Program-made: the position numbers and the translations under genes
The notes under the pieces: generated by a model
Database searches by the model: none
Seen by the model: only the letters and a program-made list of their open reading frames with translations
What the model was told of the DNA's origin: nothing
Assembly: GCA_902605135.1 (NCBI GenBank)
Contig: CACLBK010000001.1
Coordinates: 38,583 to 102,582, forward strand
DNA length: 64,000 nucleotides
Origin: an uncultured Alphaproteobacteria bacterium
Lineage (GTDB): Bacteria; Pseudomonadota; Alphaproteobacteria; HIMB59; GCA-002718135
Reading direction: 5' to 3'
Shown here: positions 32,648-57,443 of the stretch, one piece after another
How positions within the stretch are numbered: the stretch's first letter is position 1
Layout: every line of letters starts with the position of its first letter

Positions 32648-32659
32648 ATAGGGTTTAAA

Positions 32660-34583: not shown

Positions 34584-34586
34584 TTT

Positions 34587-36029: not shown

Positions 36030-36032
36030 GTT

Positions 36033-38342: not shown

Positions 38343-38366
38343 TTGTGACTAAATAACTCTTGTTTC

Positions 38367-38399
38367 AATAGTTAAAATATTTTACTCTAATTAACTATT
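38367..38399. repeat. Perfect 9-bp inverted repeat AATAGTTAA-N15-TTAACTATT upstream of soxB (candidate operator or hairpin)
   Basis: Read directly in the 75-bp spacer between the M24 gene and soxB. It is AT-rich, so a chance occurrence is possible. Confidence 0.3.
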
Positions 38400-38417
38400 C
38401 AATAATTAAATAAATAA

Positions 38418-39683
38418 ATGACAAAATTTAATGCATGGAACGTAATTAAAAATGGATTAAATGGTCAATCATATTGGACTAGGCAATGGCGTGATCCGGA
38501 ACCAAAAAAAAATTATGATGTTATAATAATTGGTGGAGGCTTACACGGACTTGCCACTGCATATTATCTTGCGAAAAATCATAATATTAAAAATGTAGCA
38601 GTTGTGGAAAAAGGTTGGATCGGGGGAGGAAACGCTGGACGTAACACGACTATTGTAAGATCAAATTATATGATGCCAGGGAATCATGAATTTTATGAGC
38701 ACTCTTTAAAATTATGGGAAAATTTAAGTCATGATTTAAATTACAATGTAATGTTTAGTCAACGAGCTCACGTTTCATTGTTTCACAGTCCTGGTGCTAA
38801 AGATTCTGTTTCAAGAACATATAATATTATGAGGCTTCATGGAACAGATGCTGAGCTTTGGGATTTAACAAAACTTAAGAAAAAAATACCTCATCTAAAT
38901 TATAATAATTCCAGATTTCCTATTTTAGGAGCGGCTGTCCAAAAAAGAGCAGGCAATGCAAGACATGATGCAGTTGCATGGGGATATGCAAGAGCTGCTG
39001 ATACACTCGGTGTAGATATTCTACAAAATTGTGAAGTAACAGGTTTCACAAGAACAAATGGAATGATTGAAAGTGTTCAAACTTCAAGAGGAATTATAAA
39101 AGGAAAGAAAATAGGATTTGCTGTTGCTGGCAATACTTCAGTATTATGGCAAATGGCAGAATTAGGCAACCTACCAATTGAGTCTCATAAATTACAAGCA
39201 TTTGTATCTGAAGCAGTAAAACCACTTCTAGATCAGGTTGTTGTTTACGGTGTGGGGGGTGCACATTTCTATATATCTCAGTCTGATAAAGGAAGTATGG
39301 TGTTTGGTGGGGATCTTGATTGGTATAAATCATATGCGCAAAGAGGAAATCTGCCTATGGTTCAAGATGTTGCTGAAGCAGCTATGGCAATATTTCCTTC
39401 ACTTGGTAGAATTAGATTACTCCGTCATTGGGCAGGAGTCATGGATATGACAATGGATGGATCATTTTTTATTTGTAAAACGCCAATATCTAATCTCTAT
39501 TTAAATGCTGGTTGGAACTATGGAGGTTTTAAGGCTAGTCCCGCATCAGGCTGGTATTTTGCTGACTTAATTGCAAATGAGAGCCCACACATTTACGTAC
39601 AGAATCATAATTTAGAGAGATTTGAAAAAGGTATCAACATAGATGAACGTGGTGCTGGACCTGATCCTAAATTGCACGGTTAA
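38418..39683 (+). CDS. soxB: Heterotetrameric sarcosine oxidase, beta subunit
   Basis: 421 aa with the FAD motif VIIIGGGLHGLATAYYLA, followed by soxD, soxA and soxG in canonical order. Confidence 0.9.
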   Translation: MTKFNAWNVIKNGLNGQSYWTRQWRDPEPKKNYDVIIIGGGLHGLATAYYLAKNHNIKNVAVVEKGWIGGGNAGRNTTIVRSNYMMPGNHEFYEHSLKLWENLSHDLNYNVMFSQRAHVSLFHSPGAKDSVSRTYNIMRLHGTDAELWDLTKLKKKIPHLNYNNSRFPILGAAVQKRAGNARHDAVAWGYARAADTLGVDILQNCEVTGFTRTNGMIESVQTSRGIIKGKKIGFAVAGNTSVLWQMAELGNLPIESHKLQAFVSEAVKPLLDQVVVYGVGGAHFYISQSDKGSMVFGGDLDWYKSYAQRGNLPMVQDVAEAAMAIFPSLGRIRLLRHWAGVMDMTMDGSFFICKTPISNLYLNAGWNYGGFKASPASGWYFADLIANESPHIYVQNHNLERFEKGINIDERGAGPDPKLHG

Positions 39684-39968
39684 ATGATTAGAATCAATTG
39701 TCCTTATTGTGGTGAAAGAGATCATAGTGAATTTAGTTACGGAGGAGATGCTACAATAAAATATCCTTCTTTAGACTCTTCTGAAAAAGAATGGACTAAA
39801 GCAATATTTTTTAGAAAAAATATCAAAGGTTTTCAATTAGAAACATGGCATCATACTAATGGATGTAGAATGTGGTTAGAGATTGAACGCTCAACAGTAA
39901 CTCATGAAATTAGAAGTGTGAAACCCTGTCATCCAGATTTAAAGAAAGTTGTAGAAAATAATAAATGA
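39684..39968 (+). CDS. soxD: Sarcosine oxidase delta subunit
   Basis: 94 aa with the zinc-ribbon-like CPYCGERDHSEF. Confidence 0.88.
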   Translation: MIRINCPYCGERDHSEFSYGGDATIKYPSLDSSEKEWTKAIFFRKNIKGFQLETWHHTNGCRMWLEIERSTVTHEIRSVKPCHPDLKKVVENNK

Positions 39969-42922: not shown

Positions 42923-43478
42923 ACATTCAGCGTTAGATACAATTTATAAAGTTGGAAAATATTCATCAAGTAAAAAAAAATCATTAACATTTAAAGAATT
43001 AAAAAGTTTAGAATTTTTACAAATTACTTGTTGGCCTGACAAAATTGATGAAATAAATAATTTATTAATAAAAAAATTAAAAATTAAAAATATTCCAGGT
43101 TTCAATAAAGGGATTTTGTTTGAAAATAAATCATTATGGAGAATGGAGCCCTTGAAATGGTGGTTATTTAATAAAGAAATTGAAGTAAGTGAGCAAATAG
43201 CAACAATTTTAGATATGTCTCATGCTTTCACAGGTATTGAAATCAAAGGAGATAATTCATCATTATTTTTAAATAGACATCTTCCGATTGATTTAAGAGC
43301 TGGAAATTTTCCAGATTTATCATCCGCTAGCACAGCTATGCATCATGTAAGTGTTAAGCTATTTAAAATATCCTCAAATAACTACTGTTTATTTATACCA
43401 AGAGGTTTTGCTTTATCAATTTGGGAGATGCTTCTTGAAACAGCAGATCAGTTTGGATATGAAGTATTAGAGAGATAG
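42915..43478 (+). CDS. soxG: Sarcosine oxidase gamma subunit
   Basis: 187 aa. Its position after soxA and its size support the call; it overlaps soxA by 8 nt. Confidence 0.78.
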   Translation: MLRHSALDTIYKVGKYSSSKKKSLTFKELKSLEFLQITCWPDKIDEINNLLIKKLKIKNIPGFNKGILFENKSLWRMEPLKWWLFNKEIEVSEQIATILDMSHAFTGIEIKGDNSSLFLNRHLPIDLRAGNFPDLSSASTAMHHVSVKLFKISSNNYCLFIPRGFALSIWEMLLETADQFGYEVLER

Positions 43479-43497
43479 AAAGATTATCTAAAAAATT

Positions 43498-44673
43498 ATG
43501 ATATTTTCACAAGATGAATTTAATTCAAGAATTGCAAAAGTAAAACAGTCTATGAATAAAAGAGGTGTTGATATTCTATTAACTACCGATCCCTCTAATA
43601 TGAATTATCTAACTGGTTATGATGGGTGGTCATTTTATGTTCCACAAGGAGTAATAATTTCTATAGATGAAGATCAGCCATTTTGGTTTGGAAGAAAGCA
43701 AGATTCGAATGGAGCTAGGATTACAACTTTTTTAAATGAAGAAAATATATTTGGTTATCCTGAGCAACTAATTCAATCACCACCATTACATCCATATGAT
43801 TATGTAGTTGAATTATTTAAAGACAAAAATTGGTCAAGTAAAAATATTGGCGTTGAAATGGATAGCTATTATTATACTGCAGAAAATCATAGGAGATTAA
43901 AAGATAATTTAACAAATGCTAAATTTATTAATGCGCATCTTCTAATTAATTGGGTTAGATATGTAAAATCTGAAAATGAAATAAAATTCATGAAAGATGC
44001 TGGCACACTTGTGAAAGGAGGAATGGAAACAGCATTTGATTCAATAAAAGAAGGTGTAAAACAAAGTACAGTTGCAGGAAAAATTCAAAATACTCTCATT
44101 GCTGGAAATGACACAACACAAATGGGAGGAGAATATTCAGGCTTAGGTATAATACTTGCAAGTGGGAGATCAGCATCAGCATCACACTTAACTCCTAGTG
44201 ATAAAAAATTTGAAAATAATGAAGGAACAATTATTGAATTAGGTGGCGTGAAACATCGTTATCACTGTGCTTTATCCAGAACTGTGTATATTGGTAAACC
44301 TGATCCAAAGATATCGGATACATTAAAAATAACAAATGAAGGTATTGAGAAAGCTTTAGAACAAACAAATCCAGGTAATAGTTGTCATAATGTTGCTGTT
44401 GCTTTTTGGTCAGTATTAGAAAAATATGGATTAGAAAAAGAGTCAAGAGCTGGTTACTCAATTGGTATTGGTTATCCTCCTGATTGGGGAGAACACACCC
44501 TTAGTATCCGGAAAAATGAAAAGACACTTTTAGAACCTAATGTTACCTATCATCTTATGTGTGGAATGTGGATGGATACATGGGGATTAGAACTAAGTGA
44601 ATCAGTTAGGGTAACAGAGTCAGGTTATGAATTACTTACTCAAGTCCCTAGAGATTTGCATATAATAAATTAA
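43498..44673 (+). CDS. M24-fold hydrolase of the ectoine hydrolase (DoeA/EutD) / creatinase type
   Basis: 391 aa with a creatinase-type N-domain. The GYSIGIGYPPDWGEHT and GMWMDTWGLELSE blocks match my memory of DoeA-like proteins. Confidence 0.72.
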   Translation: MIFSQDEFNSRIAKVKQSMNKRGVDILLTTDPSNMNYLTGYDGWSFYVPQGVIISIDEDQPFWFGRKQDSNGARITTFLNEENIFGYPEQLIQSPPLHPYDYVVELFKDKNWSSKNIGVEMDSYYYTAENHRRLKDNLTNAKFINAHLLINWVRYVKSENEIKFMKDAGTLVKGGMETAFDSIKEGVKQSTVAGKIQNTLIAGNDTTQMGGEYSGLGIILASGRSASASHLTPSDKKFENNEGTIIELGGVKHRYHCALSRTVYIGKPDPKISDTLKITNEGIEKALEQTNPGNSCHNVAVAFWSVLEKYGLEKESRAGYSIGIGYPPDWGEHTLSIRKNEKTLLEPNVTYHLMCGMWMDTWGLELSESVRVTESGYELLTQVPRDLHIIN

Positions 44674-45386
44674 TCATTTGCATCACCACCTCCAGCACCT
44701 TTGGCTCTAGATTCCTCTGATTCAGGTACAAAAGTTCTAAAAGCTATCTTAGATATTTGATCCCAAGATTTTTTATCAGGATTTATGCCTTCAGATAGCA
44801 AATTATTTATATTTGATGATGGAATATTAATATCTAACTTTTGATCATTTAAAATATTTTTTGTAAGTAAAAGATCAAAATTTCTTTGATAATTTGTAGA
44901 GATAATATCTCTATTAATACTAATATTTTTATTTGTTATTTGAGCATCAACTTTTTGATCTAACAAAAACTGTGAATTGATATTTTTTTTTGCATACTTA
45001 TAAAGCAAAGGTATTAGGAATATGGGATCATTGCAATTTTTTAAAGTTAATTTTAAATTTTCTTTTTTATCTACTTTTGATATTAAATAATCAATTAATC
45101 CTGGCCCTATCATTAATGAAGACTTATTATTACAATCAAACTCATCATTTATATTTGATGGATTTATGCTGGCATTAAAAGTGTTATCTAATTCTTTAAT
45201 TTTTAATGTTAATAATTTGATTCCGTCTAAACCAAGTATTTCAAGCCAAGTTGTAATAAATGCAGCATCTTCATCTGATCCATATGTGAACCCTAATCCT
45301 GAAAAAGCTCGCTGTGAATTAGTGTAAACTTCATAGTAAGAGTAACTCACAGATATTAATATGAATTCATTGTTGCAAAACCCCAT
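44670..45386 (-). CDS. Hypothetical protein, 238 aa, no recognised family
   Basis: Long intact ORF in stop-rich AT DNA, coupled to the upstream 554-aa gene. The start is uncertain: ATG 45386 gives a 31-nt overlap, and GTG 45350 lies 5 nt after the upstream stop. Confidence 0.55.
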   Translation of the reverse strand: MGFCNNEFILISVSYSYYEVYTNSQRAFSGLGFTYGSDEDAAFITTWLEILGLDGIKLLTLKIKELDNTFNASINPSNINDEFDCNNKSSLMIGPGLIDYLISKVDKKENLKLTLKNCNDPIFLIPLLYKYAKKNINSQFLLDQKVDAQITNKNISINRDIISTNYQRNFDLLLTKNILNDQKLDINIPSSNINNLLSEGINPDKKSWDQISKIAFRTFVPESEESRAKGAGGGDAND

Positions 45387-47020
45387 TCATCAACATTTTT
45401 ATTATTTAGATCTGATAAATAAGGAGCTCCAGAAAAAAAACTTACTCTTAACCATCTATCTGACTTAGGATCATATCGATTGGCACCAAAAAAAGATAAT
45501 TTAAATCTTAACATATCAATTGGTATTGTTTTTTTATCGAGAACATTATCTTGAACTTCCGAATAAGGATAATTTTTTAAAGATTGTATTCTTTTAACAA
45601 TTCCTCTGTATTGAGGATATGTTAATAAAAATTCACAAATTAATTGATTTTCATCTATATTTTTAATTTGCTTAAATAAATCATTAACCATTTTTGCAAT
45701 TCCTAAATTTTGCTCTAATTCACTTCCTTGTTCATTATATCTTTCACCTAATCTAGGTTCTAACTTTGCTGCTGAAACATACCAAAATAAATAATCGCTA
45801 TCTTTGTTATTAAAATCAATATTTTTTATCCAAGAATATTTATCATTGATTATTTTATTCAAATCTCCAATAGATTGATTTCCATCAATATCCATTATCT
45901 CCTCATCTGCCATATCTTCTGCTAATTCCTCTGATACTTGAGGATACAATTCAATTAGTTGCACTCTCGCAATTTCTTGAGTATCATTATTAAAATTCGA
46001 ATCACAATAATCTAAGATATCTAACCATTTAAATTTTTGAGAAAGATCTAAGTCATTAATATAAAAAATATATTTTTTTAAATCCTCAGTAGTTACTTTA
46101 TTTTTATTAATTTGGAATTGATCACTTGTGCTTACTTCTTCAAGATAATTTAAAGCTTTATTCAAAAGTTTTTTATACTTTTCAAAAACTATATTATCTA
46201 AATTAATTTGAGCAATTTCGTGTAATGTCTTTGTGTATTGAATCATCCATTTATTAATTAACTTTGGATGTTTAATAATAAAAGGTGCCATGCCTAAACC
46301 TGTCGAATTACCAATACCAAAATGTTGTTTAATTTTTCTATCTAATTTTACAGCCTTTTCTGGATTAATTTGCTTTGCAACATGCTCAACTAATTCTACA
46401 CTAAATTCTCTGATTAAATATACCGACAACATTTCTGCTCTAAAAGGTTGATTGAAAACAGTTGTATTTTTTGTATTAGTAAAATCTGATAAACCAAATT
46501 TACCGCTACCATAAACAGCAGTAGTTCTTAATAAATACCCAACTTTATTTATTTCATTTATATCTGGCTGATTACCTTTTGAAAGACAATCAACAACATA
46601 CTGAAACAATCTAACACTTTTATTTGCTCTGCTAAGAATCAACTCGTCTGGAGAGTTTCGTCCAGATTCTTGCAGAGGAATAGTTTTTTTTAATCTGTTT
46701 AGATCTTCGTTTGATAATTTACCTATATGTAACGTGTAGGCTGTATCCCATTTATCAGCAATAACTCTATCACTTCTATCTTTATCATCTAGAAACGCAG
46801 AGAAGCATACAAGTGAATAAGTATCTTTATTAATAATAATTTCATAAACAACTGTACCATAACCATCTTTATCTAAATCAAATTTCGATTTATATATTTC
46901 CCACTTGTCGTTAATTAATTTTCTTAACATACTTCTAGAAAAACTAAGGCGCGAGGGATAACGTGATCCCATTCTTGATAGTTTCATGAAGTTATCGTTA
47001 TCTCTTACTTTTTGTAACAT
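45356..47020 (-). CDS. Hypothetical protein, 554 aa, no recognised family
   Basis: 1.66-kb uninterrupted ORF. The product looks soluble, with no TM segment or signal peptide seen and no motif I can assign. Confidence 0.65.
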   Translation of the reverse strand: MLQKVRDNDNFMKLSRMGSRYPSRLSFSRSMLRKLINDKWEIYKSKFDLDKDGYGTVVYEIIINKDTYSLVCFSAFLDDKDRSDRVIADKWDTAYTLHIGKLSNEDLNRLKKTIPLQESGRNSPDELILSRANKSVRLFQYVVDCLSKGNQPDINEINKVGYLLRTTAVYGSGKFGLSDFTNTKNTTVFNQPFRAEMLSVYLIREFSVELVEHVAKQINPEKAVKLDRKIKQHFGIGNSTGLGMAPFIIKHPKLINKWMIQYTKTLHEIAQINLDNIVFEKYKKLLNKALNYLEEVSTSDQFQINKNKVTTEDLKKYIFYINDLDLSQKFKWLDILDYCDSNFNNDTQEIARVQLIELYPQVSEELAEDMADEEIMDIDGNQSIGDLNKIINDKYSWIKNIDFNNKDSDYLFWYVSAAKLEPRLGERYNEQGSELEQNLGIAKMVNDLFKQIKNIDENQLICEFLLTYPQYRGIVKRIQSLKNYPYSEVQDNVLDKKTIPIDMLRFKLSFFGANRYDPKSDRWLRVSFFSGAPYLSDLNNKNVDEWGFATMNSY

Positions 47021-47074
47021 TTATTAAATATTTATAGTTAATTTTGGTTTTTTCATTAATAGAAGTATTAATCT

Positions 47075-48061
47075 ATGTCAAAAATAAGTGAAGATATACT
47101 TTTAATTGATGGTCTCGAGTATTGTAATTGGAATAGGGAATTATTTGAAAATGCCCACCAAGCCGGATTGTCTGCAATCCATGTGACATTAGTCTATTGG
47201 GAAAATACTGAAGAGTCATTTGAAAAAATTAATTATTGGCACCGTCTTTTCAAAGAGCACCATGATATTATTGCTCATGCAAAATCTACAGATGATATTA
47301 TAAATGCTAAACAAAATAATAAAGTAGCGATTATTTTTGGTTTTCAAAATTCTGCCCCCATTGCGAATGATATATTTTTGATTGAAAAATTTTTTGAAGC
47401 AGGTGTGAGATTTATGCAACTCACCTATAATAATCAGACACCACTTGCCGGAGGATGTTTTGAGCCTAAAGATTCAGGTGTGTCACGATTTGGAAAAGCT
47501 GTTATTGAAGAAATGAATCGTCTTGGAATGATTGTAGACTTGAGTCATGCAGGTAAGCAAACTTGTCTTGATGCAATTGAAACTTCAAAAAAACCAGTGG
47601 CAATTTCTCATGCTAATCCAAGCTTCTTTCACAAATCGAAAAGAAATATTGATACTGATATTTTAAAAAAACTTGTTAAAAAAAATGGTTTTATTGGTTT
47701 AAGTTTATATCCTTACCATCTTAAAAATTTAGGTGATTGCACCATAGAAGATTTTTGTGAAATGATTAATGAGTTAGTAAACTTAATTGGTGAAGATAAT
47801 ATCGGAATAGGGTCAGATCTTTGTTTAAATTGGCCTGACAATGTTGTCATGTGGATGAGAAATGGTAAGTGGACAAAAGATATTGATTACGGTGAATCTA
47901 AAGATAAAAACCCTAAGTGGCCCAACTTACCAAGTTGGTATAAACAACCAAGTGATTTAAATAATTTATTTAATTTAATGTGTGAAAATAATATTCCGGA
48001 AAAAGTTTCCACAAAAATTATTGGTCAAAATTGGTTTAATTTTATGAAAAATCAATTTTAA
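47075..48061 (+). CDS. M19 (renal/membrane dipeptidase) family protein, atypical N-terminal metal motif
   Basis: 328 aa with VDLSHAG and ISHANP blocks like M19. It has LIDGLEYCNW where canonical members have IDGHNDLP. Confidence 0.78.
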   Translation: MSKISEDILLIDGLEYCNWNRELFENAHQAGLSAIHVTLVYWENTEESFEKINYWHRLFKEHHDIIAHAKSTDDIINAKQNNKVAIIFGFQNSAPIANDIFLIEKFFEAGVRFMQLTYNNQTPLAGGCFEPKDSGVSRFGKAVIEEMNRLGMIVDLSHAGKQTCLDAIETSKKPVAISHANPSFFHKSKRNIDTDILKKLVKKNGFIGLSLYPYHLKNLGDCTIEDFCEMINELVNLIGEDNIGIGSDLCLNWPDNVVMWMRNGKWTKDIDYGESKDKNPKWPNLPSWYKQPSDLNNLFNLMCENNIPEKVSTKIIGQNWFNFMKNQF

Positions 48062-48966
48062 TTTTTACTACTAATAAAAGAAGCAGACAATAAACTTATT
48101 ATTACAATAGAAGCCCCAATTATTTGATAGGTTGCTAAATTTTCCTTTAATAAAAAAACTGCGCCAAGAACACCCACCACAGGCTCTAAATATAAAAATA
48201 AAGCTGTATATGATTGACCAATTTTTGGGATAGCTATTAATTGTGACAACAGTGCCAAACTATAACAAATTGAAGGAATTAAAATTAAAAGATAAATGCC
48301 GATATCAAAATTAAAATTTAGAGAAAAAAATATTTTTAATATTACAAAAAAGAAAATAGTATTAAAAACATTTATAAATATATTTATTGGTATAGGAGAT
48401 ATCCCTCTTAATGACATTTTTTGATTTGTTACAATCATGCTTGTAGCTCCAAGAGAAGCTAGAAAAGCTAAAAAAATGCCTAATAAATTTATTACTTTAA
48501 AAGATGGACCTAAAACTAAAATAATCCCTAAAAATGTTAAAAAAAAAAGAATTTTTACAGCTAAATAAATTTTTTCTTTATCAACAATAATTGAATATAG
48601 AAGTACATATATTGGATAAAGACAAAAAATTAGGATAGTAAGGCTAACATCGATAAATACAACTGAAGTTAATAATCCTAGAGTTAAAAATATTGAACCA
48701 ACTGATATTGATAAAAAGTAATATATATTTTTTTTAAAATTACTAAGAAGATTTTTTTGAAAAGGTATAAAAGGTAATATTATAATTGAAGCAACTGCAT
48801 ATCGTAAAAATATAGCTAAACCTACTGATGCACCTGCATTATAAGCTATTTTAGTAGTAGGCCCAATTAAGCCAAATAAAATTCCGGCAACTAAAGCAAA
48901 AATAACACCAAATATGAACATTTTTAAAATTAACTTTTGACTATTTGGTTTCGTCCAGTTATTCAA
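48058..48966 (-). CDS. EamA/DMT-superfamily transporter
   Basis: About 10 TM segments in two EamA-like halves. The start is uncertain: TTG 48966 or ATG 48921. Confidence 0.8.
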   Translation of the reverse strand: MNNWTKPNSQKLILKMFIFGVIFALVAGILFGLIGPTTKIAYNAGASVGLAIFLRYAVASIIILPFIPFQKNLLSNFKKNIYYFLSISVGSIFLTLGLLTSVVFIDVSLTILIFCLYPIYVLLYSIIVDKEKIYLAVKILFFLTFLGIILVLGPSFKVINLLGIFLAFLASLGATSMIVTNQKMSLRGISPIPINIFINVFNTIFFFVILKIFFSLNFNFDIGIYLLILIPSICYSLALLSQLIAIPKIGQSYTALFLYLEPVVGVLGAVFLLKENLATYQIIGASIVIISLLSASFISSKN

Positions 48967-48987
48967 GCATCATTACAAATATTTAAT

Positions 48988-50076
48988 ATGAATAATCCAT
49001 CTCAAAGTTTCGTAAAATTTGAAAAGATTGATAAAAGTTACGATGGAGAAGTTCTTGTAGTTAAAAACTTAAATCTAGATATAGCGAAGGGTGAGTTTGT
49101 AACCATGTTGGGCCCTTCGGGATCTGGAAAAACAACAACTTTGATGATGTTAGCTGGATTTGAAACACCTACAAATGGTGAAATATTTTTAGATACTAAA
49201 CCAATAAGTAAAATACCTCCTTATGAACGAGAAATTGGAATGGTATTTCAAAACTATGCTCTATTTCCTCACATGACAGTTGAAGAAAATTTATCCTTTC
49301 CTTTGGAAGTGAGAAAAATACCAAAACCCGAGACAAAAGAAAAAGTACAGAGGGCACTTGATATGGTTGAGCTTGGTAATTTTGGTACCAGATTTCCCGC
49401 ACAATTATCTGGAGGTCAACAACAGAGAGTTGCTTTGGCTAGAGCTCTTGTCTTTGAACCACGTTTGGTATTAATGGATGAACCTCTCGGTGCTCTTGAT
49501 AAAAATTTACGTGAACAAATGCAATATGAAATAAAACATATTCACGACAGAATAGGAATTACAGTGGTATATGTTACACATGATCAAAGTGAAGCGCTAA
49601 CAATGTCAAACAGAATAGCTGTATTTAATGACGGAGTTGTTCAACAATTATCGACACCAGATATTTTATATGAAAAACCTGAGAATTCATTTGTTGCTAA
49701 ATTTATTGGAGAAAATAATACTCTTAACGGAGTGGTAAGAGATGTTAATGGAGATACATGTACAGTCGAACTTGATAATGGATTTGGAAAAGTAAAAGCA
49801 TTAAAAGTTAACGTAAATGATAAAGGTGATAAAACTCAACTTTCAATAAGACCAGAAAGAGTTACTATTGACAGTACAAATCCAGAATCAAATAATTTTG
49901 AAGGTAAGATACAAGAACTAATATATTTAGGTGATCATATTAGAGCAAGATTAAACGTTTGTGGAAATGATGAATTTATTGTGAAAGTTCCTAACGAAGG
50001 TAGTTTTAGTCATAAAGAGGGAGACTTATTAAATCTAAGCTGGAATCCTGATGATGTTAGGGCTCTCGACATTTAG
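48988..50076 (+). CDS. ABC transporter ATP-binding protein (PotA/polyamine-opine type)
   Basis: Track ORF 48937 is trimmed to the ATG at 48988. It has Walker A GPSGSGKTT, the signature LSGGQQQRVALARAL, Walker B LVLMDEPL and a C-terminal TOBE-like domain. Confidence 0.9.
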   Translation: MNNPSQSFVKFEKIDKSYDGEVLVVKNLNLDIAKGEFVTMLGPSGSGKTTTLMMLAGFETPTNGEIFLDTKPISKIPPYEREIGMVFQNYALFPHMTVEENLSFPLEVRKIPKPETKEKVQRALDMVELGNFGTRFPAQLSGGQQQRVALARALVFEPRLVLMDEPLGALDKNLREQMQYEIKHIHDRIGITVVYVTHDQSEALTMSNRIAVFNDGVVQQLSTPDILYEKPENSFVAKFIGENNTLNGVVRDVNGDTCTVELDNGFGKVKALKVNVNDKGDKTQLSIRPERVTIDSTNPESNNFEGKIQELIYLGDHIRARLNVCGNDEFIVKVPNEGSFSHKEGDLLNLSWNPDDVRALDI

Positions 50077-50207
50077 ATTTAAAAATATCCATATATTTAG
50101 CTCTTTTTTTTTTATTTTTAAGCCTTTTTTTTAATTAAGCTACATGTTATTACTAAGTCATTACGGACATAATCTTAAGATTAATTAATTAAAATAGGAG
50201 GATCTAT

Positions 50208-51311
50208 ATGTCTAAATTTACAAAAGCCTTCTTATTCGCATCTATCATTTTTGCGCCGTTTGCAGCTAATGCTGTAACTGTTGCTTCATGGGGTGGTGCT
50301 TATACAGAAAGTCAAAAAAAAGCATATGCTGATACATATTCTGACCCAGGTTCAATCGTTTTTGAAAACTATAACGGTGGTTTGGGTGAAACAAGAGCGC
50401 AAGTTGAAAGTGGAAACGTAACTTGGGACTTAGTTGATGTATTACCAGCTGATGCTATTACTGGTTGTGATGAAGGATTATTTGAAGATATTTCAAGTGA
50501 AATTGCATCAATGGGTGTACCAGGACCTGACGGAGAATCAATTGCTGAAGATATGGAAGCTAATGGTCTTAACTACCACTCTGGTTGGGATTGTTGTGTA
50601 CCACAAATTTTTTGGACTTACGTAGTATTCTATGACCCAGATGCTTTTCCAGGAGAAAAACCTGATAGTATGGCTGACTTCTTTGACGTGGAAAAATTCC
50701 CAGGAAAAAGAGGTATCCACACTTGGGCTGATGGAATTATTCAAAAAGCTCTAGTTGCAGATGGAGTTGCTCCAAATGCAGTACCTACAGTTTTTGCAAA
50801 TCAAACTGGTGCAATTGACAGAGCATTTGAAGTAATGGATAAAATTAAAGATCATGTTGTATTCTGGTCTGCAGGTTCACAACCTCTTGAGTTAGTTAAA
50901 AGTGGTGAAGTTGTAATGGCTGTTGCTTATAATGGTCGTGTTGGTGCAGCTAACCTTGCTGAAGGAGAAAACTTTGAATATATTTGGGAAGGACAAGTTC
51001 TAGACCAAGAATATTTATGTTTAACAACTGGAGCTCCTAATAGAGAAGCAGCTCTTGATTTTATGATGCATGCATCTAGCCCTGCTTCGCAAGCTGAACA
51101 GGCAAAATATATTACTTACGGACCAATGAGAGCTTCTGGTATTCCTATCATTGAAGCAAATGAGCCTTGGGGTCCTGGAGGAGTAGATATCATGCCTCAT
51201 ATGCCTAACACTCCTGAGCGTCTAAAAGTCTCTATCGTTAATGATCCACAGTGGTGGTCAGATAATGGTGCAGAAATTAGCGAGCGTTATTCAGCGTGGA
51301 TGGGTAACTAA
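50208..51311 (+). CDS. Periplasmic substrate-binding protein (PotD/PotF-like family)
   Basis: 367 aa with the signal peptide MSKFTKAFLFASIIFAPFAANA. A strong SD (AGGAGG) lies upstream. Confidence 0.85.
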   Translation: MSKFTKAFLFASIIFAPFAANAVTVASWGGAYTESQKKAYADTYSDPGSIVFENYNGGLGETRAQVESGNVTWDLVDVLPADAITGCDEGLFEDISSEIASMGVPGPDGESIAEDMEANGLNYHSGWDCCVPQIFWTYVVFYDPDAFPGEKPDSMADFFDVEKFPGKRGIHTWADGIIQKALVADGVAPNAVPTVFANQTGAIDRAFEVMDKIKDHVVFWSAGSQPLELVKSGEVVMAVAYNGRVGAANLAEGENFEYIWEGQVLDQEYLCLTTGAPNREAALDFMMHASSPASQAEQAKYITYGPMRASGIPIIEANEPWGPGGVDIMPHMPNTPERLKVSIVNDPQWWSDNGAEISERYSAWMGN

Positions 51312-51342
51312 GCTTGATAATTTAAATTTACTATTTTAATAT

Positions 51343-51374
51343 AAAGGCGAGAATTTCTCGCCTTTATTTATTTT
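51343..51374 (+). terminator. Intrinsic terminator between the binding-protein gene and the permease genes
   Basis: A 9-bp stem pairs AAAGGCGAG with CTCGCCTTT around a 5-nt loop, followed by ATTTATTTT. Confidence 0.7.
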
Positions 51375-51385
51375 AGGAGGATTGT

Positions 51386-52651
51386 ATTTCTACTTCAGCA
51401 TTACTTACAACGGACGGAATTCCTTTAAAGCAAAGTTTAAAAAAAGCTGAGCGTAAAAATAAAATAAGGGCATTTTTATTAGTTTTTCCTCTATTACTTT
51501 TTATAATCGTTACATTTGTTATGCCAATTGGTGATATGCTTTTTAGAAGTGTAGATGACAGTCAAATCAATGGTGTATTTCCAAATACTTTTAACGAATA
51601 TAAAAAATGGGATAAAGAAAAAGACGAACTGCCACCAGAAGAAGTTTATAAAGCTCTTTTTGAAGAACTTGCTTATGGTGAGAAAATACAAATTGGAAGA
51701 GCGTTAACTCGCATGAACTATTCAAAATCAGGTTGGAAAAGTCTGATTAAGACAACTTCTAGAGAAATTAAAAAAGCTGTAAAAAAAGATGAACTTCCAA
51801 ATAATTATAAAGAATTTTTGATTACCGCTAATGAAAAATGGGCCGACCCAACTTTTTGGTATGCAATGGGGCAGATGGTTAATGATACTACACCTATTTA
51901 TTATTGGAACGCTCTTGATAGAACTTATGACCAAGATCAAAATGTTGTCATGCAAGATGAAAAAAGACGAATTTATATAAAAACTTGGATAAAGACCTTA
52001 AAAATAAGCGTTTATGTTACAATTTTTTGTTTAATTCTTGGTTTCCCCGTAGCTCATCTTCTTGCAAATTTACCATTAAGATACAGTAATCTTCTAATGA
52101 TTTTTGTTTTACTTCCATTTTGGACATCACTTTTAGTTCGAACTACTGCTTGGATTGTTATGCTTCAACAAAATGGAGTAATAAATGGAATATTGGTATG
52201 GTTAGGTATTTTGAGTGATGATGGTCGATTACAATTAGTTTATAATGAAACAGGAACTTTAATTGCCATGACACAAATATTGTTACCATTTATGATACTT
52301 CCTTTGTATAGTGTGATGAGAGTTATACCTAAAAGTCATATGAGAGCAGCACAAAACTTAGGGGCTAAGCCTGCCACTGCTTTCTGGAGAGTATATCTAC
52401 CGCAAACTATTCCTGGCATGAGTGCAGGTGGATTATTAGTTTTTGTATTAGCAATTGGATATTTTATTACTCCTGAATTAGTCGGTGGTAAAGATGGAAA
52501 ATTAATTGGTCATTGGATTGCTTATCATCTTAAAACAACTTTAAACTGGGGTTTATGCGCTGCTTTAGGCGCAATTCTTCTTGGTGTAATGCTAATATTT
52601 TATTGGCTTTATAATAAAATAGTTGGCATAGACAATATTAAGTTAGGATAA
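51386..52651 (+). CDS. ABC transporter permease (PotB-like) with a large extra loop; probable ATT start
   Basis: The reading frame is open from 51377, and the upstream in-frame sequence encodes KKAERKNKIRAFLLVFPLLLFIIVTFV (basic stretch plus TM1) ahead of the first ATG (51521). AGGAGG lies 5 nt before the ATT at 51386. The EAA-loop is AAQNLGAKPATAFWRVYLPQTIPG. Confidence 0.78.
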   Translation: MSTSALLTTDGIPLKQSLKKAERKNKIRAFLLVFPLLLFIIVTFVMPIGDMLFRSVDDSQINGVFPNTFNEYKKWDKEKDELPPEEVYKALFEELAYGEKIQIGRALTRMNYSKSGWKSLIKTTSREIKKAVKKDELPNNYKEFLITANEKWADPTFWYAMGQMVNDTTPIYYWNALDRTYDQDQNVVMQDEKRRIYIKTWIKTLKISVYVTIFCLILGFPVAHLLANLPLRYSNLLMIFVLLPFWTSLLVRTTAWIVMLQQNGVINGILVWLGILSDDGRLQLVYNETGTLIAMTQILLPFMILPLYSVMRVIPKSHMRAAQNLGAKPATAFWRVYLPQTIPGMSAGGLLVFVLAIGYFITPELVGGKDGKLIGHWIAYHLKTTLNWGLCAALGAILLGVMLIFYWLYNKIVGIDNIKLG

Positions 52652-52654
52652 TTT

Positions 52655-53551
52655 ATGGCACTACCAAGTTACGCAACTCCAGTACAAAGAACTTACTACT
52701 ACGCCTATTTATTTTTTTGCGCAGTAGTTTTCTTTTTTTTAATTGCACCTTTATTTGCTATTATTCCAATATCTTTTAGCGTTTCACCATTTATGGTTTT
52801 TACAGAAGGAATGCTTGCATGGCCTCCTGATCCAGAAGCGTGGTCTTTAAGATGGTACAAAAACATGATAGGCGATTGTAGTGCTGATGTTGTTTCTTCT
52901 ACAGTTCCTTGTTCAACAAAATGGATGAAAGGTACAGTAAATAGTTTTTACATCGGTACTATAGCAACTGTTATTGCAACTGCTTTAGGTACTTTAGCAG
53001 CTTTAGGTTTGAGCAGACCTCATATGCCATACAAAGGATTAATAATGGCAATCTTAATCTCACCTATGATTGTTCCATTAATTATCACAGCTGCAGGCAT
53101 GTTTTTCTTTTATGCTAGAATAAACCTAGTTTATACATTTACAGGAGTAATATTGGCTCATGTAGCTCTTGCAACACCATTTGTTGTAATAACTGTAACT
53201 GCTACATTAGTTGGTTTTGATATGAACATGGTAAAAGCAGCACAAAGTCTTGGTGCAAAACCAATTAGAACATTTTTCAAAGTTATTATGCCATTAATTT
53301 TGCCAGGTATTATATCTGGAGCTTTGTTTGCTTTTATAACTTCTTTTGATGAAGTAGTTGTAGTTATGTTTATGGCAAGTATCGATCAATTAACAATACC
53401 TAAACAAATGTGGGCTGGAATACGTCAAGAAATAAGTCCCGTTATATTATGCATGGCAACATGCTTAGTTTTACTCTCAATCTTTTTATTAACTACAGTT
53501 GAGCTCCTTAGAAGAAGGTCTGAAAAACTCAGAGGTATTAAAGCTCGATAG
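52655..53551 (+). CDS. ABC transporter permease (PotC-like)
   Basis: 298 aa with 6 TM segments and the EAA-loop AAQSLGAKPIRTFFKVIMPLILPG. Confidence 0.88.
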   Translation: MALPSYATPVQRTYYYAYLFFCAVVFFFLIAPLFAIIPISFSVSPFMVFTEGMLAWPPDPEAWSLRWYKNMIGDCSADVVSSTVPCSTKWMKGTVNSFYIGTIATVIATALGTLAALGLSRPHMPYKGLIMAILISPMIVPLIITAAGMFFFYARINLVYTFTGVILAHVALATPFVVITVTATLVGFDMNMVKAAQSLGAKPIRTFFKVIMPLILPGIISGALFAFITSFDEVVVVMFMASIDQLTIPKQMWAGIRQEISPVILCMATCLVLLSIFLLTTVELLRRRSEKLRGIKAR

Positions 53552-53555
53552 AATA

Positions 53556-54785
53556 GTGAAGAACATTGCTGTTATTGGTGCTGGAATAGTAGGTATCTGT
53601 AGTGCTTATTTTCTGAAAAAATCTGGCTTTAATGTAACTCTTATAGATAGAGAAGATCCGGGTACAATGACCAGTTTTGGTCATGCATGTAGTTTTGCCG
53701 ACTATGCAAATGTTCCTGTAAATTACCCTGGATTAATATGGGACATACCTAAAATGTTATTGAGAAAAGATGGTCCTTTAGCTGTTGATTTTTTGTATAT
53801 TCTTAAAAATTTACCTTGGGCTATAAGTTTTCTCAAAAATTGCAAAAAAGAAAAAGTTGATGAGATTGCTAGTTCACTTACAAATCTATTAAAGCATTCA
53901 CAGCTATCTTATGATGAGATTTTCAAAGATATAGATGTGCAGGAGTATATAAGTAATGAAGAAAATTTATATTTATTTGACACTAAAAAATCTTTTGAAG
54001 ATTATGAATACGCAAATGTAATTAGAAAAAACAATAGAGTTAAAGTAAGAAACTTAAATAAAAATGAGGTTAAAGAATTAGAACCAAACATTGCTGATGT
54101 TTATTATGCGGGTCAAGTGTTTACTGGATCAAGACACACAACAAATCCTTTAGCTATTAGTACAAAAATTTTCGAAAAATTTTTAGAAATAGGTGGTATT
54201 TATATAAAGCAAAATGTTAAAAATATATTTCAAAATGAAAACAGAATAGAATTATTTTTAGAAGATAAAAAAATATACTTTGATAAAGTAATTATAAGTG
54301 CTGGTGCTTGGTCGAATCAAATTGCAAATATGCTTGGTGACAAATTTCCACTTGATACCGAAAGAGGATATCATATTTTATTTGAAACAAATGAAAAATT
54401 GATTAATCGACCGGTTGCTTGGTCTGAATCTGGATTTTATTTAATACAAATTCATAATGGTATCAGAGCCGCAGGAACTGTTGAAATTGCAGGATTAACA
54501 AAACCTTCAAATACGAAACGTCTTAAAATGATAGAAAGACAATCAAGAAAAGTTTTACCTCAACTAGGAGATATTAAATCAACATGGATGGGTAGAAGAC
54601 CAACTTTACCTGACTCACTTCCAATTATTGGAAAATCTAAACAGAGTAATAATGTTATTTATGCCTTTGGACATCAACATGTTGGCTGGACCTTAGGAGC
54701 TGTAACAGGAAAAATTATTGATAGTTTATCAAAGGATCAAGTGCCAAATATTGATATTACTGCTTATTCTCCATCAAGATTCTAG
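53556..54785 (+). CDS. FAD-dependent oxidoreductase (DadA / D-amino-acid dehydrogenase-like)
   Basis: Track ORF 53499 is trimmed to the GTG at 53556, just after the permease stop. The N-terminal motif is KNIAVIGAGIVGICSAYFL. Confidence 0.8.
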   Translation: MKNIAVIGAGIVGICSAYFLKKSGFNVTLIDREDPGTMTSFGHACSFADYANVPVNYPGLIWDIPKMLLRKDGPLAVDFLYILKNLPWAISFLKNCKKEKVDEIASSLTNLLKHSQLSYDEIFKDIDVQEYISNEENLYLFDTKKSFEDYEYANVIRKNNRVKVRNLNKNEVKELEPNIADVYYAGQVFTGSRHTTNPLAISTKIFEKFLEIGGIYIKQNVKNIFQNENRIELFLEDKKIYFDKVIISAGAWSNQIANMLGDKFPLDTERGYHILFETNEKLINRPVAWSESGFYLIQIHNGIRAAGTVEIAGLTKPSNTKRLKMIERQSRKVLPQLGDIKSTWMGRRPTLPDSLPIIGKSKQSNNVIYAFGHQHVGWTLGAVTGKIIDSLSKDQVPNIDITAYSPSRF

Positions 54786-56069: not shown

Positions 56070-56071
56070 TA

Positions 56072-57442: not shown

Positions 57443-57443
57443 T

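What the first reader, a model, noticed from the sequence alone, without database searches (positions are those of the whole stretch)
44670..47074. Orphan two-gene operon (554 aa + 238 aa) with no recognisable family, sharing a 54-bp divergent control region with an atypical M19 hydrolase
Seen: two long intact minus-strand ORFs sit in DNA where AT-rich stop codons normally keep random ORFs short. They are tightly coupled. The ATG at 45386 lies 31 nt inside the upstream gene; alternatively the GTG at 45350 lies 5 nt after its stop. I cannot assign either product to a family: I found no P-loop, metal-binding motif, Rossmann motif, TM segment or signal peptide. The small protein ends in a Gly-rich acidic tail (RAKGAGGGDAND). 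The large protein has Gly-rich patches (YGSGKFGLSD, GIGNSTGLGMAPF) that could be ligand loops. The pair is the only clearly unassignable content in an otherwise fully interpretable 64 kb. It sits between the sox/M24 catabolic island and a divergently transcribed M19-like gene plus an EamA transporter. The shared 54-bp spacer holds a 10-bp palindrome TAAATATTTA (47025-47034). It also holds ATTAATA-N4-TATTAAT (47055-47072), which abuts the M19 start codon. Inference: this is a dedicated, possibly novel enzyme/accessory pair acting with the M19-like hydrolase on a nitrogenous substrate.
Basis: partly seen in the sequence, partly recalled or inferred. Interest (0 to 1): 0.72.

Follow-up and report, generated by a model that had tools for sequence, protein, structure and literature searches.

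The report
Conserved three-gene amine-catabolism module, function unknown
The two "orphan" genes are real and belong to a very widespread but uncharacterised module: a 554-aa protein with no known family or solved fold, its DUF3726 partner, and an atypical M19-like hydrolase, which probably break down imported nitrogen-containing osmolytes in SAR11 and many other bacteria.

Summary
The 554-aa protein ("X") has no Pfam, NCBIfam or PDB match, and a confident AlphaFold model (pLDDT 88) has no Foldseek hit in the PDB. Even so, it has 1,252 cluster representatives (50% identity) and occurs in at least 594 species across at least six phyla. The small protein is Pfam DUF3726, a degenerate copy of the N-terminal half of Ldh_2 oxidoreductases. 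It follows X directly in 90 of 92 loci and is fused to X in many organisms, so the two very probably form one enzyme. An M19-like gene accompanies them in 82 of 92 loci, usually as an M19→X→DUF3726 operon; only the window's lineage has M19 inverted. This M19-like subfamily (PDB 2i5g type) lacks four residues of the canonical di-zinc dipeptidase site. In other operons it sits beside amine-oxidising or deaminating enzymes (DgcAB, FAD oxidoreductases, EutBC). Recurrent partners are an aldehyde dehydrogenase, LysR, BCCT/OpuAC/PotD-type transporters, RidA and Ldh_2. Best reading: a catabolic module for a cationic or zwitterionic amine, with X–DUF3726 doing the C–N-processing step. Substrate and chemistry are unknown. 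The spacer palindromes are not supported as operators. I found no literature on the module.

The parts
45356..47020 (-). Large subunit 'X' (554 aa). Uncharacterised family with no Pfam or NCBIfam model and no solved homologue. Conserved motifs: LSRANKSVR (129-137), RTTAVYGSGKFG (165-176), GIGNSTGLGMAPF (235-247), WYvSaaKlEPR (413-423).
   Evidence: no family. (distribution). (conservation; AF2 pLDDT 88.4; no Foldseek hit in the PDB).
44670..45350 (-). Small subunit (226 aa from the GTG at 45350; the longest ORF, 238 aa, starts at the ATG at 45386). Pfam DUF3726, similar to the N-terminal half of Ldh_2. Conserved C-terminal tail S-E-x-S-R-x-x-G-A-G-x-G-x-x-(D-N-D).
   Evidence: PF12525, E 8e-10. 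(start, tail). (Ldh_2 relationship). (adjacent to X in 90 of 92 loci). (fusions).
47075..48061 (+). Atypical M19-like TIM-barrel hydrolase (328 aa) of the PDB 2i5g subfamily. Positions equivalent to His20, Asp22, Glu125 and His152 of the canonical enzyme are Leu14, Tyr16, Gln91 and Tyr118. His158, His179 and Asp248 are retained.
   Evidence: PF01244, 248 bits. (2i5g 210-284 bits; alignment to 1itq). (signature shared across the subfamily). (present in 82 of 92 X loci).
47021..47074 (.). 54-bp divergent spacer between X and M19. It results from a lineage-specific inversion of M19. Its palindromes are not supported as conserved operators.
   Evidence: (the divergent arrangement occurs only in the window plus L014-L026).
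48937..53551 (+). Probable cognate uptake system: a PotA-like ATPase, an SBP_bac_8 (PotD-type) binding protein and two permeases. The same transporter type lies beside the module in S. meliloti pSymB, L032, L047 and L063.
48058..48966 (-). EamA-family transporter, a constant neighbour of M19 in the window's lineage. Its link to the module is uncertain.
   Evidence: cluster c27 in 12 related loci.
43498..44673 (+). M24 hydrolase convergent on the small gene. It is DoeA-like (TIGR02993, 462 bits, below the 613 cut-off). M24 enzymes of various subtypes recur next to the module in unrelated lineages.
53499..54785 (+). FAD-dependent (DAO-family) oxidoreductase following the ABC transporter. Possibly part of the same catabolic island.
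   Evidence: cluster c32 conserved in the lineage.

Best explanation
The pair is the core of a conserved three-gene catabolic module: M19-like hydrolase, X, and a DUF3726 protein.

Shown:
- X and the DUF3726 protein are obligate partners. The DUF3726 gene directly follows X almost everywhere and is often fused to its C-terminus, so they very probably form one hetero-oligomeric enzyme.
- They are nearly always co-encoded, and usually translationally coupled, with an M19-like TIM-barrel protein.
- That M19-like protein cannot build the canonical two-zinc dipeptidase site.

Inferred:
- The module acts on an imported cationic or zwitterionic nitrogen compound (betaine, osmolyte or polyamine class).
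- X-DUF3726 carries out the C-N-bond-processing step (deamination, dealkylation or oxidation that yields an imine, carbinolamine or aldehyde). In other operons built around the same M19-like subfamily, that slot is held by flavin amine dehydrogenases or oxidases (DgcAB, FAD oxidoreductases) or by ethanolamine ammonia-lyase.
- The M19-like protein does a hydrolytic step on the same pathway. It either releases the amine from an amide, or resolves the imine or carbinolamine, probably with a single beta-site metal.
- The resulting aldehyde is oxidised by the co-encoded aldehyde dehydrogenase.
- In this SAR11 lineage the module was rearranged (M19 inverted) and lies between a PotD-type ABC importer and a sox/M24 island.

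The exact substrate, the cofactor and the order of steps are unknown.
For: Pairing and fusion: the DUF3726 gene is directly downstream of X in 90 of 92 loci. Fusions of about 800 aa are seen in P0123, P0129, P0132, P0136, P0145, L006 and L075.

Trio: an M19-like gene is present in 82 of 92 loci and directly upstream on the same strand in 49. It is seen from Firmicutes to Chloroflexota.

Degenerate M19 site: Gln for Glu125 and Tyr for His152; His198, His219 and Asp288 kept; IDGLEY in place of IDGHND.

The same M19-like subfamily sits beside DgcAB (PMC13492115, PMC12093977), beside FAD oxidoreductases in Rhodococcus, Kozakia, Nitratireductor, Salipiger and Azospirillum, and beside an FAD oxidoreductase plus EutBC. 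The Nitratireductor operon (LysR, Aldedh, M19, ABC transporter, FAD oxidoreductase) parallels LysR, Aldedh, M19, BCCT, X-DUF.

Partners within 6 kb in the 78 loci outside the window's lineage: aldehyde dehydrogenase 25, LysR 18, BCCT 15, OpuAC 12, Ldh_2 11, RidA 9. PotD-type ABC transporter plus class-III aminotransferase plus aldehyde dehydrogenase in S. meliloti.

X looks like an enzyme. About 80 columns are invariant across 69 sequences at about 40% identity, including many Arg, Glu, Asp, Lys and Trp residues and two Gly-rich loops that follow beta-strands.
Against: There is no biochemical or genetic evidence, and no paper on the module was found.

X has no recognisable cofactor-binding motif and no homology to the enzymes it is proposed to replace, so the 'same slot, same role' argument rests on synteny alone.

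The catabolic partners are heterogeneous: the M24 genes are DoeA-like, DddP-like or of other types, and three transporter families occur. The substrate may therefore differ between lineages, or the module may serve a generic function.

Many loci hold only the bare trio with no transporter or dehydrogenase nearby.

In L042 a histone-deacetylase-family amidohydrolase takes M19's place, and in L046 and L086 a SABATH methyltransferase does. These do not fit one simple scheme.

Confidence: 0.5

Rival explanations
1. X-DUF3726 is not catalytic. It would be a substrate-binding, scaffolding, maturation or regulatory partner of the M19-like protein, for example supplying or gating its incomplete active site. 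The conserved C-terminal S-R-x-x-G-A-G tail could insert into the barrel. The M19-like protein would then be the only enzyme of the trio.
For: No cofactor motif or known catalytic fold in X. DUF3726 has lost the Ldh_2 'SHG' segment. The M19-like site lacks four canonical residues and might need a partner. The tail is strictly conserved.
Against: In other operons the same M19-like subfamily works without X or DUF3726, so it does not need them for folding or activity in general. A 554-aa protein with about 80 invariant positions, many of them charged or aromatic, across phyla is more typical of an enzyme. X-DUF3726 also occurs without M19 in L042, L046 and L082.
Confidence: 0.2
2. The module degrades peptides. 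The M19 protein would be a true dipeptidase, for example for L-Xaa-D-Xaa or other unusual dipeptides from peptidoglycan or dissolved organic matter, and X-DUF3726 would process the released amino acid.
For: Strong Pfam M19 match (248 bits). Canonical M19 enzymes are dipeptidases (PDB names). M20 and M24 peptidase-family genes lie nearby in the window. A more distant M19 (32% identity) in R. leguminosarum lies among peptide-type ABC transporters.
Against: Four residues of the canonical di-zinc site are replaced throughout the subfamily. The linked transporters are BCCT, OpuAC and PotD types, not Opp/Dpp peptide systems. The subfamily is embedded in the dimethylglycine operon, whose substrate has no peptide bond (PMC13492115).
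Confidence: 0.1
3. The module is biosynthetic or modifying rather than catabolic. It would make or remodel a small nitrogenous metabolite, such as an osmolyte or a methylated compound.
For: A SABATH-type SAM methyltransferase lies next to X in seven loci, and directly upstream of X in L046 and L086. Many loci contain the bare trio without catabolic neighbours.
Against: The dominant context is a LysR regulator plus an importer plus an aldehyde dehydrogenase, and often sox or GcvT-like demethylation genes. That is the hallmark of substrate-inducible catabolism. The module is retained in streamlined SAR11 genomes beside uptake systems.
Confidence: 0.1
4. The ORFs are chance open frames or decaying pseudogenes.
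For: None beyond the lack of annotation. The M19 partner is split into two ORFs in a few SAG/MAG loci (L021, L024, L029).
Against: There are thousands of full-length homologues at 26-99% identity, with conserved motifs, conserved gene order and fusions across phyla.
Confidence: 0.01

Closest known systems
Pfam DUF3726 (PF12525) / Ldh_2 (PF02615) malate/L-lactate/imino-acid dehydrogenase family
   Same: The small protein passes the DUF3726 gathering score. DUF3726 partners align to the first ~130-150 positions of Ldh_2 (hhalign E 9e-5, probability 60%). Fusion proteins give repeated sub-threshold Ldh_2 hits to the same region. A genuine Ldh_2 gene often follows the DUF3726 gene.
   Different: Only about half of an Ldh_2 domain is present. 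The segment holding the conserved 'SHG' motif is deleted. The protein carries a family-specific C-terminal tail and is tied to X, so it is unlikely to be an NAD(P)H-dependent dehydrogenase by itself.
M19 membrane (renal) dipeptidases, e.g. human DPEP1 (1itq), Sco3058 (3id7), GliJ (5lwz)
   Same: Same TIM-barrel family by Pfam (248 bits). His198, His219 and Asp288 equivalents are conserved.
   Different: Scores only 77-87 bits to these enzymes, against 210 bits to 2i5g. Glu125 is replaced by Gln and His152 by Tyr, and IDGHND becomes IDGLEY, so the alpha-metal site and the bridging carboxylate are missing. The N-terminal motif of 1itq is quoted from memory.
PA5396-type 'dipeptidase' of the dimethylglycine (dgc) operon; PDB 2i5g 'amidohydrolase'
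   Same: Closest solved relative of the module's M19-like protein (210-284 bits). It has the same degenerate active-site signature. It is also embedded in amine (dimethylglycine) catabolism (PMC13492115, PMC12093977, PMC8079746).
   Different: Its partner is a DUF5943/V4R protein plus the flavoprotein DgcAB and Etf, not X-DUF3726. Its own function is also unknown. That 2i5g is PA5396 itself is my inference from equal length (325 aa) and was not verified.
Ethanolamine ammonia-lyase EutB/EutC and FAD-dependent amine oxidoreductases
   Same: They occupy the same operon position next to the same M19-like subfamily, often with LysR, a transporter and an aldehyde dehydrogenase. EutBC is likewise a large-plus-small two-subunit enzyme that makes an aldehyde.
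   Different: No sequence relationship to X or DUF3726 (hhalign probability at most 0.2%). X lacks the N-terminal GxGxxG of the FAD enzymes. There is no evidence for B12 or flavin.
Ectoine degradation set DoeA/DoeB/DoeD/DoeC
   Same: Similar enzyme classes recur around the module: M24 hydrolase, amidohydrolase, class-III aminotransferase and aldehyde dehydrogenase. The window also has eutABC-like genes and a DoeA-like M24.
   Different: The window's M24 is below the DoeA cut-off (462 against 613 bits). M24 partners elsewhere are DddP-like or of other types, and the aminotransferases are not DABA-transaminase-like. X-DUF3726 has no counterpart in the Doe pathway.

Membership tests
Pfam DUF3726 (PF12525) | Score above the Pfam gathering threshold (22.1 bits) | tested here: met
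   Small protein: 38.9 bits, E 8.1e-10, residues 16-76. Orthologues and fusions also hit.
Ldh_2 oxidoreductases (PF02615) | Full-length (~330 aa) domain above the gathering score (38.8 bits) | tested here: not met
   No PF02615 hit for the window protein. Fusions reach at most 28.8 bits, and only over profile positions 2-141.
Ldh_2 oxidoreductases (PF02615) | Conserved 'SHG' segment in the N-terminal domain (catalytic His, from general knowledge of the family) | tested here: not met
   The hhalign alignment shows a deletion in DUF3726 exactly where the Ldh_2 consensus has 'dG..SHGl'.
M19 membrane dipeptidase | Pfam Peptidase_M19 domain | tested here: met
   248.4 bits against a cut-off of 26.
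M19 membrane dipeptidase | Binuclear zinc site: His20, Asp22, bridging Glu125, His198, His219, plus His152 (human DPEP1 numbering; ligand roles from memory of the 1itq literature) | tested here: not met
   Glu125 to Gln91, His152 to Tyr118; His198 = H158, His219 = H179, Asp288 = D248 (counted on the printed alignment). IDGLEY replaces the N-terminal motif. The replacements are invariant in 10 module orthologues and shared by dgc-type and FAD-type relatives.
Any curated protein family for the 554-aa protein | Significant hit in Pfam-A (2025) or NCBIfam (2026) | tested here: not met
   0 Pfam families for the window protein and for 38 diverse members (one noise hit at E 0.008). The best NCBIfam hit has E 0.02 at 14.9 bits against a cut-off of 100.
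Any solved structure for the 554-aa protein | Sequence or fold similarity to a PDB chain | tested here: not met
[quoted passage not shown] | M19-like gene followed by a DUF5943/V4R gene and dgcAB | tested here: not met
   The dgc partner is DUF5943+V4R. The window's small protein is DUF3726. No DgcA- or DgcB-type domain was seen among the window genes scanned at 28.4-58.9 kb.
Ethanolamine ammonia-lyase (EutBC) / FAD amine oxidoreductases | Detectable homology of X or DUF3726 to EutB, EutC or the FAD enzymes | tested here: not met
   hhalign probabilities 0.1-0.2%.
Ectoine hydrolase DoeA (for the neighbouring M24 at 43498-44673) | Score above the TIGR02993 equivalog cut-off (613 bits) | tested here: not met
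   462.3 bits.
Homarine operon homABCDER | Contains M19, X or DUF3726-type genes | tested here: not met
   The paper describes a flavin enzyme, HomB, a 'peptidase' and an aldehyde dehydrogenase. The word 'dipeptidase' occurs 0 times.

The most novel reading that the evidence does not exclude
X-DUF3726 founds a new enzyme class with a previously unseen fold that cleaves or oxidises C-N bonds of methylated amines, betaines or polyamines. It would use no cofactor or an unrecognised one, replacing flavin amine oxidases or dehydrogenases. Working with a mono-metal, 'pseudo-dipeptidase' M19-like hydrolase, it would define an undescribed route of dissolved-organic-nitrogen turnover in SAR11, roseobacters and hundreds of other species.
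Probability: 0.3. Interest if true: 0.85.

Novelty: new variant of a known kind. Interest (0 to 1): 0.62.

Why it matters
SAR11 genomes are extremely streamlined, yet they keep this roughly 3.3-kb module, and at least two divergent versions exist within Pelagibacterales. It is also present in roseobacters, rhizobia, pseudomonads, halomonads, Actinomycetota, Chloroflexota and a Firmicute. A 554-aa protein this widespread, with no Pfam model, no annotation and no structural homologue, is a clear gap in metabolic maps of marine nitrogen and osmolyte cycling. The analysis turns an "orphan" into a defined, testable unit with four elements:
- three genes plus an aldehyde dehydrogenase;
- tractable model hosts (Phaeobacter inhibens DSM 17395, Ruegeria sp. 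TM1040, S. meliloti pSymB);
- a specific hypothesis for the class of chemistry;
- a second finding of wider use, namely that the PA5396/2i5g-type "dipeptidases" annotated in glycine-betaine operons are a distinct subfamily that cannot be canonical di-zinc dipeptidases and that systematically accompany amine-oxidising enzymes.

Tried and rejected
1. I guessed from memory that PA5397 of the Pseudomonas dgc operon is DUF3726. Rejected: in Paraburkholderia and Sphaerotilus dgc operons the gene is DUF5943+V4R. Only the M19-like subfamily is shared.

2. The module as an ectoine-type (DoeABCD-like) pathway. Not supported: the M24 partners are heterogeneous (DddP-like, DoeA-like, other) and the aminotransferases are not DABA-type.

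3. The module as the published homarine operon. No.

4. X as a very divergent FAD oxidoreductase or EutB, and DUF3726 as EutC. Rejected.

5. X versus Ldh_2 or M19 by hhalign: nothing found.

6. DUF5943 versus X or DUF3726 by hhalign: my input set was contaminated by wrong ORFs, so the negative result is inconclusive.

7. Single-sequence AlphaFold of the small protein: pLDDT 42, unusable.

8. Foldseek against the PDB gave only noise, including scattered Bet v1/START and protein-kinase chains at probability 0.10 or below (one designed binder reached 0.33). I did not interpret these.

10. Literature searches for DUF3726, PGA1_262p + dipeptidase, TM1040_3381-3386 and SAR11 + dipeptidase + sarcosine oxidase returned nothing; a search combining membrane dipeptidase, BCCT, aldehyde dehydrogenase and LysR returned six unrelated papers.

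11. The sigma-70 promoter scan of the region found fewer sites than shuffles (6 against 20.1 expected) and none in the spacer.

12. The palindromes as operators: not supported.

Full report
OBSERVATION. The ATG at 45386 lies 31 nt inside the upstream gene, and a GTG at 45350 lies 5 nt after its stop. A 54-bp spacer separates the large gene from a divergent M19 gene at 47075..48061. The quoted Gly-rich motifs and the acidic Gly-rich tail are present. The likely start of the small gene is the GTG, giving 226 aa. Similarity to fused homologues begins at residue 13 of the long ORF, orthologues align from "M-x-x-S-x-x-E", and relatives L023, L024 and L026 start 4-7 nt after the stop of the large gene.

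FAMILY ASSIGNMENT. I call the large protein X. It has no hit in Pfam-A or NCBIfam, no PDB sequence match (best E 1.2), and none of 38 diverse family members hits a Pfam model. The small protein is a member of Pfam DUF3726 (38.9 bits against a cut-off of 22.1), so "no recognisable family" holds for only one of the two. Neither is an orphan. X has more than 8000 close database relatives, mostly Pelagibacteraceae. It has 1,252 cluster representatives at 50% identity with E ≤ 1e-3. These include Alpha-, Gamma- and Deltaproteobacteria, Acidimicrobiales, Chloroflexota (Promineifilaceae), Campylobacterota (Poseidonibacter) and Pseudomonas and Paracoccus isolates, and a Firmicute, Marinococcus. Every source annotates it as "hypothetical protein".

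THE PAIR IS ONE UNIT. In 92 loci that encode X, a DUF3726 gene lies immediately downstream on the same strand in 90. The two exceptions are contigs that end at or just after X. Many cluster representatives are 760-960 aa instead of about 560 aa. Those tested carry X followed by DUF3726 in one polypeptide, and fused genes occur in a metagenome contig and in Poseidonibacter. Gene fusion, invariant adjacency and overlapping stop and start codons are strong evidence that the two proteins function together physically.

THE M19 LINK. An M19-like gene lies within 10 kb in 82 of 92 loci. Seven of the ten exceptions have less than 1.1 kb of sequence upstream of X. In 49 loci the M19-like gene is directly upstream on the same strand, usually overlapping X by 1-4 nt. 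In most of the other 19 a BCCT transporter gene is inserted between M19 and X. The divergent arrangement with a short spacer of about 20-80 bp (54-55 bp in the closest relatives) occurs only in the window and its 13 closest lineages (L014-L026). Other Pelagibacteraceae, whose X is 44-45% identical, have the standard M19→X→DUF3726 operon. The "shared control region" is therefore a lineage-specific rearrangement. The 10-bp palindrome is no more frequent than chance and is variable in close relatives. The 7-N4-7 repeat is conserved only in close relatives (85-93% protein identity) and absent from L023, L025 and L026. A sigma-70 consensus scan found nothing in the spacer.

THE M19-LIKE PROTEIN IS NOT A CANONICAL DIPEPTIDASE. 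It scores 210 bits (284 with a profile) to PDB 2i5g, an uncharacterised 325-aa "amidohydrolase". It scores only 77-87 bits to renal dipeptidase, Sco3058 and GliJ. Counting along the printed alignment to human DPEP1 (1itq), the bridging Glu125 corresponds to Gln91 and His152 to Tyr118, while His198, His219 and Asp288 are kept as His158, His179 and Asp248. The N-terminal "IDGHND" metal motif, quoted from memory of DPEP1, reads "IDGLEY". These replacements are invariant in ten module orthologues. They are shared by relatives from dgc operons and from FAD-oxidoreductase operons. The two-zinc centre cannot form. A single beta-site metal remains possible, as I recall is the case for E. coli NagA.

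WHAT THE M19-LIKE SUBFAMILY KEEPS COMPANY WITH. In Pseudomonas the dimethylglycine operon is PA5396 (putative dipeptidase), PA5397 (hypothetical), dgcA and dgcB (PMC13492115). The same pair precedes dgcAB in Vibrio (PMC12093977). I tested whether PA5397 is DUF3726, and it is not. In Paraburkholderia and Sphaerotilus the gene is DUF5943 with a V4R domain. Further contexts sampled from annotated replicons:
- Rhodococcus: aldehyde dehydrogenase, M19-like, FAD oxidoreductases.
- Kozakia: LysR, FAD oxidoreductase, M19-like, ABC transporter.
- Nitratireductor: LysR, aldehyde dehydrogenase, M19-like, ABC transporter, FAD oxidoreductase.
- Salipiger: LysR, FAD oxidoreductase, M19-like.
- Azospirillum sp. 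TSH58: soxBDAG, M19-like, hypothetical, FAD oxidoreductase.
- Azospirillum brasilense: TRAP transporter, M19-like, FAD oxidoreductase, EutB, EutC.
- R. leguminosarum (32% identity): peptide-type ABC transporters only.
So in seven of eight contexts without X, the subfamily is next to an enzyme that oxidises or deaminates an amine. The Nitratireductor layout is the X-module layout with an FAD oxidoreductase where X-DUF3726 would be. X and DUF3726 are not homologous to those enzymes.

THE DUF3726 PARTNER. Profile-profile comparison aligns 124 columns of the DUF3726 partners to the first ~150 positions of Ldh_2 oxidoreductases (E 9e-5, probability 60%). There is a deletion where Ldh_2 has its "SHG" segment. 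Long fusion proteins give repeated sub-threshold Ldh_2 hits to profile positions 2-141 (best E 8.7e-7). The Halomonas orthologue carries both PF02615 and PF12525 hits. A complete Ldh_2 gene follows the DUF3726 gene in several lineages. DUF3726 therefore looks like a truncated, probably non-catalytic derivative of an Ldh_2 domain. Its C-terminal tail (Ser-Arg-x-x-Gly-Ala-Gly invariant, usually ending D-N-D) is the most conserved part of an otherwise 21-26%-identical family. The role of the tail is unexplained.

STRUCTURE OF X. With a 69-sequence alignment, AlphaFold2 gave a confident model (mean pLDDT 88.4, pTM 0.89). It has an N-terminal alpha/beta region, a central helical region and a C-terminal alpha/beta region. 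Foldseek against 350,542 PDB chains found nothing: best E 0.22 and TM-scores about 0.1. The two family-defining motifs are Gly-rich loops that directly follow beta-strands: 162-166 then YGSGKFG, and 235-241 GIGNSTG leading into a helix. That geometry often binds phosphate or other anions, but this is only a hint. About 80 columns are invariant across 69 sequences at about 40% identity. They include ten Arg, six Trp and several Glu, Asp and Lys residues and one His. This suits an enzyme that binds a charged small molecule.

CONTEXT AND SUBSTRATE CLASS. Outside SAR11 the recurrent operon is a divergent LysR regulator, aldehyde dehydrogenase, M19-like, (BCCT), X and DUF3726, sometimes followed by Ldh_2 or RidA. 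It is seen in Phaeobacter inhibens DSM 17395, Ruegeria sp. TM1040 (next to soxDAG), Pseudomonas spp., Halomonas, Paracoccus and others. Counts within 6 kb among the 78 loci outside the window's lineage: aldehyde dehydrogenase 25, GcvT/DmdA-like 22, LysR 18, BCCT 15, OpuAC-type binding protein 12, Ldh_2 11, RidA 9, Rieske oxygenase 8, SABATH methyltransferase 6. The aldehyde dehydrogenase is closest to alpha-ketoglutarate-semialdehyde / 2,5-dioxovalerate dehydrogenases, but well below their cut-offs. In S. meliloti pSymB a distant member (about 29% identity) is followed by a PotD-type ABC transporter, a class-III aminotransferase and an SSADH-like dehydrogenase. The window has the same kind of transporter at 48937-53551, as do L032, L047 and L063. 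M24 hydrolases recur beside the module but differ in type: DoeA-like in the window, DddP-like in L043, L089 and L092. All of this points to catabolism of small cationic or zwitterionic nitrogen compounds (betaines, osmolytes, polyamines) through an aldehyde. It does not identify the compound, and the compound may differ between lineages.

MECHANISTIC MODEL AND ITS LIMITS. The best-supported reading is a three-component catabolic unit. X-DUF3726 is a two-subunit (sometimes fused) enzyme for the C-N-processing step. The M19-like protein performs a hydrolytic step, either amide cleavage before that step or resolution of an imine or carbinolamine after it. The second option would also explain its presence with DgcAB, Sox, FAD oxidases and EutBC, and the frequent RidA neighbour. 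The aldehyde dehydrogenase finishes the sequence. What is shown: the conservation, adjacency, fusion, degenerate M19 site and partner statistics. What is inferred: catalysis by X, the type of reaction and the substrate class. Three exceptions do not fit one simple scheme: a histone-deacetylase-family amidohydrolase in M19's place in Anderseniella, and a SABATH methyltransferase in that position in L046 and L086.

LITERATURE. I found no paper that mentions DUF3726 or the locus tags of the module, and no SAR11 paper that links these genes. The 2026 homarine operon is a different gene set.

NOVELTY. The genes are in the databases as hypothetical or DUF3726 proteins, so their existence is not new. 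What appears undescribed is the module as a unit, the fold of X, the Ldh_2 origin of DUF3726, and the recognition that PA5396/2i5g-type "dipeptidases" form a distinct subfamily, lacking the canonical di-zinc ligands, that is coupled to amine-oxidising enzymes. I rate it a new variant of a known kind (a substrate-inducible catabolic operon) built around an uncharacterised enzyme core. There is a real chance (about 0.3) that the core is a new enzyme class.

Noticed in passing
window 54903-58919 (+): Luciferase-like monooxygenase (388 aa), AA_synth PF06684 (195 aa), alpha/beta hydrolase (S33-like, 260 aa) and aldehyde dehydrogenase (491 aa). This resembles the homABCD homarine-catabolism operon reported in 2026 (flavin enzyme, HomB, 'peptidase', aldehyde dehydrogenase; said to be present in Pelagibacter). 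The match was not verified by sequence.
   Followed up: partly
window 31892-44673 (+): EutA-, EutB- and EutC-like genes (all below their equivalog cut-offs), a 480-aa PALP-like protein, an M20 (DoeB2-like), an M24, then soxB, the delta-subunit gap, soxA and soxG, and a second, DoeA-like M24. It looks like a composite ectoine-like / N-methyl-amino-acid catabolic island. Relatives L014-L018 carry an extra proline-racemase-family gene next to soxB that the window lacks.
   Followed up: partly
window 30789-31892 (+): A 367-aa ORF directly upstream of the eutA-like gene has no Pfam or NCBIfam hit. The X/DUF3726 pair is therefore not the only unassigned coding content of the window.
   Followed up: no
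L011, L012, L094-L099 (annotated plasmids/chromids); PDB 2i5g: 'Membrane dipeptidase' genes of the PA5396/2i5g type share a Leu/Gln/Tyr signature in place of His20/Glu125/His152. They sit next to DgcAB, FAD oxidoreductases, soxBDAG or EutBC. They are probably mis-annotated as dipeptidases across many genomes.
   Followed up: yes
L011:9094-9627, L012:8984-9523: The 'hypothetical protein' of dgc operons (the PA5397 position) is DUF5943 plus a V4R small-molecule-binding domain. Its role in dimethylglycine catabolism appears to be unstudied.
   Followed up: partly
L042:8929-9957; L046:8632-9735; L086:19-1101: A histone-deacetylase-family amidohydrolase (L042) or a SABATH-type SAM carboxyl/N-methyltransferase (L046, L086) occupies the position directly upstream of X where M19 normally lies. 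The methyltransferase is also nearby in L036, L043, L051, L053 and L063.
   Followed up: partly
L021, L024, L029 (M19 gene); L058 (X gene): In these SAG/MAG loci the M19-like gene, or X in L058, is split into two ORFs. This could be a frameshift, an assembly error or occasional pseudogenisation.
   Followed up: no
NC_018291.1 and related Phaeobacter plasmids: Some Phaeobacter inhibens plasmids contain two places matching X. The two Phaeobacter versions are only about 64% identical, which suggests paralogous modules, possibly with different substrates. Pelagibacterales likewise have two X lineages that are about 45% identical.
   Followed up: no
window 46501-46523 (-) and 46955-46970 (+): Two terminator-like hairpins inside the X coding sequence were reported by the consensus scan (2 found against 0.6 expected). 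They are probably fortuitous.
   Followed up: no
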